Made by a program: the position numbers. 64,000 nt of DNA from Octopus sinensis (lineage: Eukaryota): positions 62,001 through 126,000 of the forward strand of contig NW_021835997.1 of the NCBI RefSeq assembly GCF_006345805.1. The letters run 5' to 3'. This document shows, one piece after another, positions 42,001-45,000 of the stretch (positions are counted from its first letter, which is position 1; each line of letters begins with the position of its first letter).

Positions 42001-45000
42001 TTTTACCGTCACACAATTTCCGGCCATTATTGTCACCTCCTTCCTTCCCTCCGACTTGATAAAGTCCTTCACGTCCTCCGCGACCTGCTCTCCTGCTCTC
42101 TTTTGTTAACTCAATCAGAGAAATCAATGGAACCCAAAAGCTTTTCATTAATTTTGTAACGAGAATTCTTTGGCTTAGAATTTAATTCTTTTAATTTTTT
42201 TTTTTTTTTTTTTTGATTTTTTTTTTTTAATGAAAACCAACCAATAACTACAAGTTAAGCCGACGCCGACGACGCCGACGCGAATATAAAAAACAACCCA
42301 TATCCAAACAATCAAACTGGCTTAAATGATGATCAGCCAAATTTGAAATGCACTTGACCATTTTACTGAGGAATGGGTATCGAGATTGATGCAAAAATGT
42401 ATTGGAATTCATAATAAGGATCATAAGTCGACGTGCCCGAGTCAGTGCGACGTTGACCTTCTAAAAACCGATAGAAAACCAACTGAATCTAAGCACGATT
42501 ATTTTTTTACATAAACTGGGATCATTAGATCTGACAAATAAAACAATGATGACTTTTTTCTCCCTTGCTTGAAAAGAATCGACGCTGTTAATCTCAATAT
42601 TTTTGAAATCCGAAAGCTTCTTTTAATTTCTTTAACTTGAGCATTGTAGAAAGAAATGACTCCGATATCTTTTTGGTTAACGCCTGCATCGATCAGTTTG
42701 TGAGCCCACTTTGCTGCGAGCTTCGCATCCTCTTTATAAAATATATTGAATTAAAAAAACCCAAATTTAAATTTGACTTTTGATTAATATTCTTTTCATG
42801 GACTGAAGTACCTGTGTCCACAAGGATGAGAGCAGATGAGGTCAATATAGTACGTCTGATCTCACTGAGATGGCTAGTGAAGTCTATGTATTTTTTGGGT
42901 ACCAGAGGAGATGTGACTCGTGAGGAATTAGTTTCCCTTTATAGAATTCATCAGAAGAGAATGACATTATCTTTAAGTTCATTCTGTACTGAATGGTTAA
43001 CATTTTAACACACTCGGGATATAGTTCAGCCACTCTTTCCATTATAGATATTCCAAAGCCCACCTGTTCTGCTCTACAAAAATGTACTTAACATTACTGT
43101 TGGGAGAGGACTGTTGGTGGCAATTGATTGAAATCACCAGCCATTATACACTTTCTGGCCAGAGGGAGTCCCACCCAGCAGATAGCTTCCAATACCTAAT
43201 TATTGGTTAAAATAAAAAGACTTGACTACACTCGTCGATTATGAACAAGTCAAATTTATATAAATGTTCGTCGTTATCGTCTATAATTTTTTTTACTTTT
43301 CCCACGCCTGCCAAAGTAGTGAAAACGACGTGAGAAGACATGATTCTTCGTTTACTTTCTTCTTTAATGATAGCCTCCAACTCCTTCAACTCATCCTCAA
43401 TATCGGAAGATCGCTTTTTTATTTTTTATCAGAAAATTACATTATTAAAAATAAAATCTTCTAAATATTCAATTTGAAAATAACGGTCACTATCCATCAG
43501 TCGACGAGAGAGCGAATTTGAAAGACCGACTTCTAACATTTTTTCTTCTTTGCCAATTCGAACAAACTCTCTATCCGGAATTTGGAGTGCACTGAATCGT
43601 CCAACAAGGTTGTCGACAGCAACATTCGAAGGTGCAGTCACGATAATCTAAAAATATTAAAAAATTCAAACGCGATTATTTTCGTCGATTAATGATTGCT
43701 GAATTATTTCAAGTATTACCGCAGACTTCCCAGTCCCCGGAGGGCCCTGGATTATTCCAAGTCTTGGCTAAGAGAGGACAAAGTTTACGACTTTTTTTAA
43801 CAGAATTCAAATTTTTATTGAAATTTGTAAAATCTAAATTAATTATTTCTCTCAAAAGTTGATTAATAAATTATTCAACAATGTTGATTAACTAACAAAA
43901 TTTAATTTTTTCTCAGCAAAACAAACTTTTTATGTAATACATTTCCTTTTTTGAAATAGAAAAAAACATTTTCGATAGAATACATGAATTATATAATAAG
44001 TCTTCTAAAGCTCGAATATATAACTTTGTTGATGAATAACCTTTTCATTAACTCATAAACTGCAAAATTTGGTATTTCAGTCAAATTATATGATATTTTG
44101 GGATTGATATATGTAATTGGCTCGGAACTGGTAAGGAAAATTGAATTAGGATTTCTGATTTCCCACAAAACAGTTTTCCCTTTAAACGTATTTTCTGAAT
44201 GTGAATCAACTTTGATCGAGTCGCCTACATCATGTTTTAAAAAACCTTTTTTAACTTGATCTCTGAGAGTCTTGGTCAAGAATTTTGAGCTGAGGACACA
44301 TCGTCGTCGACAGAATTGACGGAATCGTTGACAAGACCATATTTTGTGAAGTGTTTGACTTCACAATTACACTCACTCGATAAAGCGTCATATGAAATAA
44401 ACTTGGCGTCCAAATTTGAGATTTTTTGTCTTAAATAGTCTTCATAACTGGTTTGGTCGTCGTCTTGAGGAAATAGGCATTTTAGAACTATGGTGGCTGG
44501 CCGGTTAAGTCCGCTGCCGAGAGAAGGAGTGTCTTCTTCGTTGAAATATATTTGTACATAGTTTTTGCCAATTTCAGCTAAGACTTTGATATAAAAAGAT
44601 ACAATTATTGAATATTTCACTTAAAGTTGTATTTGTTATTCCTGGAAAGTATATTGAGCCAAATTCATTGTAAAGTTTTAAGTTTGAAAAAAGTGGCATT
44701 TAACAAATGTACTTTGTTCAACAAACAGTGAAATCACAATAATGAAAAACGCGTCTTTTATATTCAAATTTTTAAATAAAATAATTACTTTTTATATAAT
44801 ACTTAATATTTAAATAATAATGTAGATATTTCAACAGGAAAAATGCAGCAACTTATTACTACACTTTCAGTACATATCAAACCTGCAAATAAAGAGAGGA
44901 TGTATCTAAATCCAAAGAGAAACTTATTTGGTACTTTTCTATTTCATGAATCACGAAAATAGGCACTAAATTAATTAATGAAAATTTAACGGTGTAATAA

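What the first reader, a model, noticed from the sequence alone, without database searches (positions are those of the whole stretch)
42290..44699. Nup98 autoprotease domain joined directly to an IGHMBP2-like helicase
Seen: an ATG-initiated Nup98-type autoproteolytic domain ends HFTKYGL plus an acidic linker. It is followed with zero spacer and one frame offset (44276-44279) by the 1B-like region and full SF1 core of an IGHMBP2-like helicase, where Nup96 would normally be. Established: Nup98 self-cleaves at HF|S and this domain docks at the nuclear pore. Inference: this is either a rearrangement junction or the decayed copy of a real lineage-specific fusion yielding a self-releasing or pore-tethered RNA helicase. 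Thr could plausibly replace Ser as the nucleophile. I know of no such architecture.
Basis: partly seen in the sequence, partly recalled or inferred. Interest (0 to 1): 0.7.

Follow-up and report, generated by a model that had tools for sequence, protein, structure and literature searches.

The report
Broken Nup98-fragment and helicase pseudogene junction
A piece of the self-cleaving nuclear-pore protein Nup98 lies directly in front of a damaged helicase gene copy, but no reading frame runs through both, so it is most likely dead rearranged DNA and not a new fusion protein.

Summary
The feature lies on the minus strand of an animal genome whose introns are only 23-29 nt long. The Nup98-type S59 autopeptidase match is real (Pfam E 2.7e-15; own profile E 4.7e-30). 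It includes HF-T-KYGL and the acidic start of Nup96, but only its C-terminal two thirds are statistically detectable. The helicase is IGHMBP2-like; the best solved relative is 4b3f.

The locus does not encode one protein. From ATG 44699, no chain of short GT..AG introns gets past 43847. The same test reads cleanly through the neighbouring SLC6 gene.

The helicase carries lesions that no intron can explain:
- In-frame TAA at 43991-43989.
- A frameshift in an A7 run, followed by TAG at 43770-43768.
- Two frameshifts in the second RecA domain (about 42622 and 42457). There, consecutive profile or IGHMBP2 positions sit in different frames on overlapping DNA.

Its last 12 codons and the poly(A) are a 5'-truncated LINE tail. 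A repeat ends 231 nt upstream of the ATG. None of the 150 closest S59 proteins examined (of 225 found) contains a helicase. The "1B-like" stretch matches nothing.

Verdict: a chimeric, decayed pseudogene junction. Interest is low.

The parts
44930..45305 (.). Repeat copy upstream of the S59 ORF. It is an inverted copy of window 1-293 and carries an 82-nt insertion at 44960-41.
   Evidence: blastn: 45042-45305 matches 264-1 at 97.3% over 264 nt. 44930-44959 matches 293-264 at 100%.
44603..44699 (-). Putative first exon of the S59 ORF. It runs from ATG 44699-44697 for 32 codons plus 1 nt and contains ..FGSIYFPG..
   Evidence: The ATG is preceded by an in-frame TAA. It aligns to own-profile positions 54-68, the right place, but scores only 0.9 bits, which is not significant. 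There is no Pfam or PDB support. By eye, the spacing to the next exon equals the consensus spacing.
44578..44602 (-). 25-nt GT..AG intron inside the S59 domain.
   Evidence: GC 0.24. Length and composition resemble the 21 control introns. It restores the frame between the two S59 pieces.
44276..44577 (-). S59 autopeptidase, C-terminal two thirds. H-F-T lies at 44353-44345, with the predicted scissile bond between 44348 and 44347. Then follow KYGL, the acidic Nup96-type start, and stop TGA 44278-44276.
   Evidence: Pfam PF04096 E 2.7e-15, profile 57-148/148. Own 98-sequence profile E 4.7e-30, positions 75-177. PDB Nup145/Nup98-96 alignments. Best library relative P0008 is 51% identical.
44271..44299 (-). 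Only short GT..AG (29 nt) that would remove the TGA and put the downstream ORF in frame. It is atypical for an intron.
   Evidence: GC 0.45, against 0.22-0.42 in the 21 control introns. Length 29, against 23-26. Its log-odds equals the lowest control value. The stretch aligns as coding to the acidic start of Nup145C/Nup96.
43992..44273 (-). It ends at TAA 43991-43989.
   Evidence: No match in Pfam, PDB at E<=10, BLASTP against the paralog's N-terminal stretch 24516-24671 or the Atlas. AlphaFold pLDDT is 44.
43768..43991 (-). Degenerate stretch with stops in all frames. It contains LNSVKK / KKVVNFVLS in two frames, a frameshift in the A7 run 43798-43792, and an in-frame TAG at 43770-43768, two codons upstream of AAA_11 profile position 19.
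   Evidence: Frames are shown. The paralog reads LNNVKKDAVKYAFLN in one frame at the same place. The constrained intron search cannot pass 43847. A 34-nt GT..AG (43801-43768) would excise both lesions.
42626..43767 (-). Intact middle of the helicase, from the P-loop GPPGTGKS to ..YNAQVKEIK. It has 328 codons in seven exons. The six introns are 43671-43648 (24 nt), 43440-43414 (27), 43221-43196 (26), 43097-43074 (24), 42902-42874 (29) and 42760-42732 (29).
   Evidence: Pfam AAA_11 19-42, 55-108, 165-225, 226-257 and AAA_12 3-48, 89-131. IGHMBP2 residues 411-464 and 514 onward.
42620..42625 (-). Frameshift with no room for an intron.
   Evidence: AAA_12 89-131 ends at 42607 in one frame. AAA_12 135-166 starts at 42610 in another. 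IGHMBP2 514-~548 and 556-582 align to the two frames. Codons are shown.
42457..42622 (-). Motif V region (..NSVDSFQAREKKVIIVLFVRSN), a 28-nt intron at 42516-42489, then 11 codons NSVGFLSVFRR. A 1-nt frameshift lies at 42457, before VNVALTRARR.
   Evidence: AAA_12 135-166 and 177-194 lie in one frame. The 10 missing profile positions are supplied by an 11-codon piece in another frame that overlaps by 1 nt.
42283..42457 (-). Motif VI (VNVALTRARR) and the end of the second RecA domain.
   Evidence: AAA_12 177-194. Reading shown.
42193..42282 (-). 5'-truncated LINE 3' end plus poly(A), in the same orientation. It supplies the last 12 codons (RRRRRRRLNL and neighbours) and the stop TAG 42250-42248.
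   Evidence: 42258-42232 is 100% identical over 27 nt (E 8e-10) to 27338-27364. That site lies 14 nt after the stop of the RT ORF 25558-27324. Both copies are followed by CATTA(n). The cgcgtcggc..ctt motif of the LINE ORF end is also present.
18078..24671 (-). Diverged, also decayed helicase paralog. Core exons lie at 18078-19023. The P-loop exon lies at 24140-24238, with N-terminal stretches up to ~24671. The two parts are split by ~5 kb of transposon DNA. No S59 is nearby.
   Evidence: tblastn at 38-64% identity. Frames. AAA_12 on 18328-18558 and a DDE_3 match in between. The S59 profile finds nothing else in the window.

Best explanation
This is a chimeric pseudogene junction, not a fusion gene. 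A fragment of a Nup98-Nup96 gene now abuts a 5'-truncated, IGHMBP2-like SF1 helicase copy on the same strand. The fragment holds the last ~100-125 codons of the S59 autopeptidase domain, with HF|T, and the first ~22 acidic codons of Nup96. It still carries one 25-nt intron.

The helicase copy keeps its tiny introns, so it arose by DNA-level duplication or rearrangement, not as a processed retrocopy. It has since accumulated nonsense and frameshift mutations at both ends. A 5'-truncated LINE insertion cuts it off at the 3' end, and a repeat bounds the locus on the 5' side.

Shown: the domain identities, the introns, the lesions, the LINE tail and the absence of an open path.

Inferred: the lesions are real mutations; the parent Nup98-96 and helicase genes lie elsewhere in the genome; the junction arose by illegitimate recombination in repeat-rich DNA. 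At most a short S59-fragment peptide could be made. No self-releasing helicase is produced.
For: (1) No open path. A search allowing any GT..AG of 20-40 nt from ATG 44699 ends at 43847, upstream of the P-loop. This holds with intron GC up to 0.40 or 0.50. The same search reads SLC6 from ATG 63170 to stop 61096 through 7 introns of 23-25 nt, and SLC6 has contiguous SNF profile coverage.

(2) Lesions that no intron can explain.
- AAA_12 positions 89-131 and 135-166 lie in different frames on overlapping DNA (42607/42610). IGHMBP2 residues 514-~548 and 556-582 align to those two frames.
- A second shift of 1 nt lies at 42457.
- In-frame TAA at 43991-43989.
- An A7-run frameshift plus TAG 43770-43768, two codons upstream of AAA_11 position 19. 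The paralog is in one frame there.

(3) The 3' end is transposon. A 27-nt stretch is identical to a LINE 3'UTR and is followed by poly(A). The ORF's last 12 codons lie in it.

(4) A 97% repeat copy ends 231 nt upstream of the ATG.

(5) The S59 domain is incomplete at its N-terminus. The stretch after the junction matches nothing.

(6) The junction's only short GT..AG is exon-like: GC 0.45, 29 nt, lowest log-odds. It aligns as coding sequence of the Nup96 start.

(7) Lesions are unevenly spread. I counted none in SLC6 (1.9 kb of coding sequence). I counted about six in the ~2 kb helicase region. This argues against uniform assembly error.

(8) No precedent was found. 0 of the 150 best S59 relatives (of 225 at E<=0.001) matches any helicase exon at E<=10 or has a UPF1-type Walker A. 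0 of 16 scanned by Pfam has AAA_11/12, 15 of 16 have S59 and 11 of 16 have Nup96.
Against: (1) The middle of the helicase is uninterrupted: 328 codons with six clean introns. The S59 ORF is also uninterrupted: ATG, one intron, about 132 codons, TGA. This is more intact than a long-dead locus might be.

(2) Neighbouring genes are not all clean.
- The furin-like gene has a frameshift at ~49160, where Peptidase_S8 95-148 and 147-183 lie in different frames on overlapping DNA. It also has an in-frame TGA at 49355-49353.
- KRR1 has an in-frame TAA or non-GT..AG introns.
- SLC7 needs one GA..AG intron.
So local assembly error or non-canonical splicing cannot be excluded.

(3) Frame-restoring GT..AG candidates enclose both the junction stop (29 nt) and the A7/TAG lesions (34 nt). 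In genomes with such short introns the splice signals are reported as reduced to GTa..AG (PMC13644364, passages read).

(4) I had no transcripts, no reads and no rest of the genome. The parents were not seen.
Confidence: 0.7

Rival explanations
1. The locus is a decayed copy of a real lineage-specific fusion gene. Somewhere else in this genome, or in relatives, an intact gene would encode S59-acidic linker-helicase. That protein would cleave itself at HF|T, and this locus would be its dead duplicate.
For: - Same strand, no spacer, and the acidic Nup96-type linker is kept.
- HFT is a natural catalytic variant, found in 18 of 149 relatives.
- Ser, Thr or Cys can serve as nucleophile in this class of autoprocessing (PMC3210808, passages read).
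- The organism's proteome is not in the searched collection: the SLC6 control reached only 48% identity at best. Absence of a hit therefore says little about this lineage.
Against: - The S59 domain lacks its N-terminal part.
- The sequence right after the junction matches no helicase N-terminus.
- The helicase paralog in the window has no S59 within reach.
- 0 of 150 S59 relatives carries a helicase.
- The listings of two literature searches showed no such architecture.
Confidence: 0.08
2. The gene is intact in the organism. On this view, the stops and frameshifts are assembly errors or are removed by non-canonical or atypical introns. Either a fusion protein or two adjacent proteins would then be made.
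For: - The furin-like and KRR1 genes, 3-5 kb away, show comparable anomalies.
- Three of the frameshifts lie in A- or G-rich runs.
- GT..AG candidates of 29 and 34 nt would bridge two of the lesions.
- Splice signals are minimal in such genomes (PMC13644364).
Against: - TAA 43991-43989 and TAG 43770-43768 are substitutions, which is not the typical long-read error.
- The shifts at 42622 and 42457 leave no room for any intron.
- SLC6 is clean, and SLC7 (hand-curated, by eye) needs only one GA..AG intron.
- Five or six independent errors would be needed within 2.4 kb.
- The 3' end is LINE sequence.
Confidence: 0.07
3. The locus is a tripartite LINE-made chimera. On this view, reverse transcription started on a LINE RNA, jumped to a helicase RNA, and then jumped to a Nup98-96 RNA. 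That would give [Nup98-96 piece]-[helicase]-[LINE 3' end]-poly(A) in one orientation.
For: - A LINE 3' end plus poly(A) follows the helicase directly, in the same orientation.
- Each cellular part is 5'-truncated.
- Tripartite chimeric pseudogenes made by double template jumps are described (PMC2104539; search listing and start of abstract only).
Against: - Eight short introns are retained in the two cellular parts. At least two of them are shared in position with the paralog.
- No target-site duplication of 8 nt or more was found for either boundary model.
Confidence: 0.08
4. There are two independent units. A small stand-alone S59-fragment gene (ATG 44699 to TGA 44276, about 132 codons, one intron) would be expressed on its own. 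It would simply lie next to an unrelated helicase pseudogene.
For: - The S59 ORF is complete, with start, canonical intron and stop.
- It scores 101.9 bits against the S59 profile.
- It ends 22 codons after HF|T. This is reminiscent of the short-tailed Nup98-only isoform of vertebrates (recalled, not tested).
Against: - It has no FG or GLEBS part, and the first ~25 domain positions are missing.
- 400 nt without a lesion is not unexpected by chance at the lesion density of the helicase part (inference).
- There is no expression evidence.
Confidence: 0.07

Closest known systems
Nup98-Nup96 precursor (MEROPS S59 / Pfam PF04096 autopeptidase; yeast Nup145)
   Same: - The C-terminal two thirds of the S59 domain are present.
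- The catalytic H-F-[S/T]-K-Y-G-L motif is present.
- An acidic stretch follows that aligns with the start of Nup96/Nup145C.
- The best relative, P0008, is 51% identical and has the S59+Nup96 architecture.
   Different: - There is no FG-repeat or GLEBS part upstream.
- The first ~25 domain positions are absent, and positions up to 56 are not statistically detectable.
- There is no Nup96 body anywhere in the window.
- The residue after HF is Thr instead of Ser. This is a natural variant, seen in 18 of 149 relatives.
IGHMBP2 / SMUBP-2 (UPF1-like SF1 helicase)
   Same: - It is the best solved relative of three exons: 4b3f residues 411-464, 514-~548 and 556-582.
- All AAA_11 and AAA_12 blocks are present in order.
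   Different: - The reading frame is broken at four or more places.
- The N-terminal 1B region is not recognisable.
- No R3H or AN1 zinc-finger part was found; that architecture is recalled. The C-terminus is a LINE tail.
Chimeric pseudogenes / juxtaposed gene fragments in repeat-rich DNA, including LINE-associated chimeras
   Same: - Two unrelated gene fragments lie head to tail.
- There are disabling mutations.
- Transposon sequence lies at the boundary.
- The concept of tripartite LINE chimeras is in PMC2104539 (listing and abstract start only).
   Different: - The introns are retained, so this is not a processed copy.
- No target-site duplication was found.
Self-cleaving modules attached to effectors (ZU5-UPA/FIIND of NLRP1, CARD8, PIDD; GAIN domain)
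   Same: This is what a working version would resemble. An HFS-type N-O acyl-shift autoproteolysis would release or tether a downstream domain (PMC3210808, passages read).
   Different: The families are unrelated, and here no open frame links the module to the effector.
NUP98 oncogenic fusions such as NUP98-DDX10 (recalled, from no call)
   Same: A NUP98 part is joined to a helicase by a chromosomal rearrangement.
   Different: - Those fusions keep the N-terminal FG repeats and lose the autoproteolytic domain.
- They involve a DEAD-box helicase, not an SF1 helicase.
- They are somatic events in human leukaemia.

Membership tests
S59 Nup98-96 autopeptidase (PF04096) | Complete ~148-position beta-sandwich domain | tested here: not met
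   - Pfam covers positions 57-148 only.
- My own profile is significant only for positions 75-177 of 208.
- The ATG exon aligns in the right place at 0.9 bits.
- Nothing matches the first ~25 domain positions anywhere in 3,261 six-frame segments.
S59 Nup98-96 autopeptidase (PF04096) | Catalytic H-F-[S/T] followed by K-Y-G-L | tested here: met
   - HFTKYGL aligns to HFSKYGL/HFSIWGL.
- HFT occurs in 18 of the 149 relatives, HFS in 101, and 30 did not match my pattern.
S59 Nup98-96 autopeptidase (PF04096) | Sits between an FG/GLEBS nucleoporin part and Nup96 | tested here: not met
   - No FG-rich frame lies in 44700-45300.
- No Nup96 domain was found in the window.
- Of 16 relatives scanned, 11 have Nup96.
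S59 Nup98-96 autopeptidase (PF04096) | Actual self-cleavage | not testable with these tools
   This needs in-vitro translation or expression of the ORF.
UPF1-like SF1 helicase (AAA_11 + AAA_12) | Conserved helicase blocks I to VI present in order | tested here: met
   AAA_11 19-42, 55-108, 165-225, 226-257 and AAA_12 3-48, 89-131, 135-166, 177-194 are found on successive pieces.
UPF1-like SF1 helicase (AAA_11 + AAA_12) | One uninterrupted (spliced) reading frame through both RecA domains | tested here: not met
   - Frameshifts at ~42622 and 42457 leave no room for an intron.
- TAG 43770-43768 and the A7 shift lie before the P-loop.
IGHMBP2 orthologue | N-terminal 1B barrel and stalk | tested here: inconclusive
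   - No match in Pfam, PDB, BLASTP or the Atlas.
- The model has pLDDT 44. It shows strands followed by a long helix, which proves nothing.
IGHMBP2 orthologue | C-terminal R3H and AN1 zinc finger (architecture recalled) | tested here: not met
   - The ORF runs into a LINE tail right after the second RecA domain.
- Neither domain occurs among the 104 ORFs scanned, chosen from the 152 ORFs of 75 aa or more in the window. The 48 left out were mostly overlapping ORFs on the opposite strand or in another frame, or ones already scanned.
Processed (retro-)pseudogene | Lacks the parent's introns; own poly(A); target-site duplication | tested here: not met
   - Eight introns of 24-29 nt are retained.
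- The poly(A) belongs to the LINE tail.
- No direct repeat of 8 nt or more was found.

The most novel reading that the evidence does not exclude
In this lineage of ultra-short-intron parasites, an intact gene may exist elsewhere that fuses the Nup98 S59 autoprotease to an IGHMBP2-like helicase. That protein would cut itself at HF|T. The helicase would then carry a Nup96-like N-terminus that docks it at the nuclear pore. The locus seen here would be a dead duplicate of that gene.
Probability: 0.07. Interest if true: 0.7.

Novelty: new member of a known kind. Interest (0 to 1): 0.15.

Why it matters
If a working S59-helicase fusion existed, it would be the first use of the Nup98 autoprotease outside nucleoporin biogenesis. 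It would also be a built-in way of tethering an RNA helicase at the pore. The evidence here points instead to an ordinary outcome: gene fragments brought together and decaying in repeat-rich DNA.

The practical lesson is for annotation. In genomes with 23-29-nt introns and minimal splice signals, frame offsets must be sorted into introns and true lesions before a domain architecture is inferred.

Tried and rejected
1. The word-index protein search returned nothing for the S59 exon or for a helicase exon with 'longer' lengths. A control with an SLC6 exon reached only 48% identity at best, so the organism's proteome is not in that collection. These nulls say nothing.

2. Exact look-up of three ORFs found none in the collection.

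3. An upstream 'YYTVKF' ORF (44880-45071) looked by eye like the missing S59 start. I rejected it. It has no Pfam, PDB or profile support, and it lies in an 82-nt insertion of a repeat.

4. The '1B-like' ORF was tested with Pfam, PDB, BLASTP against the paralog's N-terminal stretch 24516-24671, the Atlas, and a single-sequence AlphaFold model of pLDDT 44. All were uninformative. I did not run a fold search, because a low-confidence model gives meaningless matches.

5. I tested ORF 27482-27811 as a possible paralog N-terminus beyond the LINE. It had no match.

6. An unconstrained intron search (up to 45 nt, any GC) finds an 'open' path through the whole locus. It does so only by deleting conserved motifs, so I rejected it as a gene model.

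7. Stop-codon reassignment is rejected. SLC6 has no in-frame stop, and all three stop codons occur in the degenerate stretch.

8. A target-site duplication search found none.

9. Rfam and tRNA scans of the window found nothing.

10. P0007, the top library hit, is a 3,835-aa fn3 repeat protein without S59. It is a false positive.

11. Naming the taxa of the S59 relatives could not be done.

I did not use genome contigs, because it holds only bacteria and archaea.

13. I did not consult the supplements of the papers.

Every search was done exon by exon, so profile coverage across exon joins rests on coordinates, not on a joined query.
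Full report
SETTING

The feature lies on the minus strand of a eukaryotic, animal window. The neighbours are:
- a POU-homeobox gene (46055-46864, +);
- KRR1 (47.3-48.2 kb, -);
- a furin-like convertase (48.3-49.6 kb, -);
- an SLC6 transporter (61.1-63.2 kb, -);
- an amino-acid permease (0.7-2.4 kb, +);
- many transposon fragments with RT, integrase and DDE transposase domains.

The window has no N.

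Genes here are interrupted by GT..AG introns of only 23-29 nt. Twenty-one control introns in four neighbouring genes are 23-26 nt long, with GC 0.22-0.42. Introns this short are reported in animals only for myxobolid myxozoans and the dicyemid Dicyema japonicum, with splice signals reduced to GTa..AG (PMC13644364, abstract and passages). D. japonicum is described with 36.7% GC, 49% repeats and many LINE copies (PMC6736024, passages including Table 1). The window fits that kind of genome. I did not try to name the organism further.

THE S59 HALF

Pfam finds the Nup98-96 autopeptidase S59 on 44279-44620, with E 2.7e-15 and profile positions 57-148 of 148. PDB alignments to yeast Nup145 and vertebrate Nup98-96 run through HF-T-KYGL into the acidic start of Nup145C/Nup96.

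A full HMMER scan of 1.84 billion representatives gave 225 proteins at E<=0.001. The 150 best were listed. The best true hit, P0008, is 51% identical.

From 98 of these I built a profile that extends on both sides of the domain. I ran it over all 3,261 six-frame open segments of 12 aa or more in the window. Only 44279-44620 is significant, with E 4.7e-30 at positions 75-177.

The ATG exon (44699-44603) aligns at the expected place, positions 54-68, but scores 0.9 bits. It has no Pfam or PDB support. By eye, removing the 25-nt intron 44602-44578 restores the consensus spacing. I therefore accept this exon as probable.

The first ~25 positions of the domain are missing. The ATG is directly preceded by an in-frame TAA. 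No FG-rich frame lies upstream.

Thr after HF is unremarkable. Among the 149 true relatives my pattern found HFS in 101 and HFT in 18, and no match in 30. One protein matched twice. P0010, with HFT, has S59 plus Nup96. Autoprocessing of this type uses Ser, Thr or Cys (PMC3210808, passages).

THE JUNCTION

The S59 frame ends at TGA 44278-44276. Another frame is open from 44360 to 43992.

One short GT..AG (44299-44271, 29 nt) would remove the stop and restore the frame. However, its GC of 0.45 lies above all 21 controls. Its composition score equals the lowest control value and falls in the range of false GT..AG pairs inside SLC6 exons. The stretch also aligns as coding sequence to the Nup96 start. 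It is not excluded, but it does not look like an intron.

They match nothing in Pfam, PDB (E<=10), the paralog's N-terminal stretch or the Atlas. A single-sequence model has pLDDT 44. They end at TAA 43991-43989.

THE HELICASE HALF

The helicase half is IGHMBP2-like. Three exons have human IGHMBP2 (4b3f) as their best solved relative. All AAA_11 and AAA_12 blocks are present in order.

From the P-loop exon (43767) to ..YNAQVKEIK (42626), 328 codons are uninterrupted. They contain six introns of 24, 27, 26, 24, 29 and 29 nt.

Around this intact middle lie lesions that introns cannot explain.

(i) Before the P-loop, LNSVKK and KKVVNFVLS lie in two frames. They are separated by a shift in an A7 run (43798-43792). 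TAG 43770-43768 sits two codons upstream of AAA_11 profile position 19. The paralog reads the same stretch in one frame.

(ii) AAA_12 positions 89-131 end at 42607 in one frame. Positions 135-166 start at 42610 in another. IGHMBP2 residues 514-~548 and 556-582 align to those two frames.

(iii) After the 28-nt intron 42516-42489, eleven codons (NSVGFLSVFRR) supply the ten missing profile positions. They overlap the next block (VNVALTRARR, AAA_12 177-194) by one base in a different frame.

Between 43991 and 43870, all frames carry stops.

THE FORMAL TEST

I allowed any GT..AG of 20-40 nt and asked how far an open frame can run.
- From ATG 63170, SLC6 reads to its stop at 61096 through seven introns of 23-25 nt. 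It has contiguous SNF profile coverage.
- From ATG 44699, the frame dies at 43847 at the latest, whether intron GC is capped at 0.40 or 0.50.
- Only when introns up to 45 nt of any composition are allowed does a path exist. That path deletes conserved motifs.

THE ENDS OF THE LOCUS

The last 12 codons, the stop TAG 42250-42248 and the following poly(A) are not helicase. 42258-42232 is identical (27 of 27 nt, E 8e-10) to 27338-27364, the 3'UTR just after the RT ORF of a LINE at 24.96-27.39 kb. Both copies are followed by CATTA(n). The end of the LINE ORF is also recognisable at 42282-42259. A 5'-truncated LINE therefore sits on the helicase's 3' end, in the same orientation.

Upstream, 44930-45305 is a 97% inverted copy of window 1-293. 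It ends 231 nt before the ATG.

PARALOG AND PRECEDENT

A diverged helicase copy lies at 18078-19023, with its P-loop exon at 24140-24238. It is split by about 5 kb of transposon DNA and is itself out of frame. No second S59 exists in the window.

None of the 150 S59 relatives matches any helicase exon at E<=10 or has a UPF1-type Walker A. Three have a generic GxxxxGK[ST]. The other 75 of the 225 were not examined.

Of 16 relatives scanned with Pfam, 15 have S59, 11 have Nup96 and none has AAA_11/12. Two literature searches listed no natural S59-helicase architecture (listings only).

CAVEATS

- The word-index searches were uninformative, because this organism's proteins are not in that collection.
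- The neighbouring furin-like and KRR1 genes also show a frameshift, in-frame stops or non-GT..AG introns. SLC7 needs one GA..AG intron. Local assembly error or unusual splicing therefore cannot be ruled out. The SLC7 and KRR1 judgements lean partly on recalled family motifs.
- Against uniform assembly error: SLC6 is clean, two of the helicase lesions are substitutions, and two frameshifts leave no room for any intron.
All searches were done exon by exon.

VERDICT

The sequence observation is largely real. The locus is best read as a chimeric pseudogene: a Nup98-96 fragment next to a truncated, mutated IGHMBP2-like helicase copy, bounded by repeats. How the two came together remains open. DNA-level rearrangement is favoured, because the introns are retained. 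A LINE template-jump chimera is a weaker alternative (PMC2104539, listing and abstract start only), and no target-site duplication was found. A functional self-cleaving helicase is not supported.

Noticed in passing
whole window; e.g. 63055-63032, 62698-62676, 1449-1472, 48979-48955: Introns are ultra-short. The 21 control introns are 23-26 nt long, and helicase introns reach 29 nt. They are T-rich, with little signal beyond GT..AG.
   Followed up: yes
window 49158-49162 and 49353-49355 (minus strand): The furin-like convertase gene has a frameshift. Peptidase_S8 profile positions 95-148 and 147-183 lie in different frames on overlapping DNA. It also has an in-frame TGA just after a 23-nt intron. 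Either the gene is also a pseudogene or the assembly is locally faulty.
   Followed up: partly
window 48101-48103, 47764-47787, about 47596-47622 (minus strand): KRR1 is normally an essential gene. Here it shows an in-frame TAA between KH1 profile positions 26 and 28, or else a non-GT..AG 25-nt intron. It also has two in-frame insertions of 24 and 27 nt that start with GT but end in TG and AA.
   Followed up: partly
window 1518-1543 (plus strand): The amino-acid permease gene needs a 26-nt intron that starts with GA instead of GT. No GT is available in the stretch. This was judged by eye.
   Followed up: partly
window 1-293 and 44930-45305: This is a 97% identical inverted repeat. Each copy lies a few hundred bases upstream of a gene, in the same relative orientation. 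One copy precedes the permease gene and the other precedes the S59 ORF. The copy at the window's start is cut by the window edge.
   Followed up: partly
window 18078-19023 and 24140-24671 (minus strand): This is a second IGHMBP2-like helicase copy, 38-64% identical in protein. It is split by about 5 kb holding RT-like ORFs and a DDE_3 transposase. It has its own frameshift just before the P-loop, whose motif has degenerated to GLAGTGKT.
   Followed up: partly
window 55792-56639 and 57944-58791: This is a tandem duplication of about 2.15 kb. It carries identical integrase (rve) ORFs and neighbouring Spin-doc-type zinc-finger ORFs.
   Followed up: no
window 41694-41990, 37150-37491, 37793-38032 (minus strand): Isolated domain fragments lie between transposons. 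They are the end of a GOLD_2 domain in unusually GC-rich DNA just downstream of the helicase, a ribosomal protein S26e piece, and an MSP-domain piece.
   Followed up: no
protein P0007 (library hit): The best-scoring library hit to the S59 exon is a 3,835-aa fibronectin-III repeat protein. It matched in nine short stretches and has no S59 domain, so it is a false positive of the search.
   Followed up: yes
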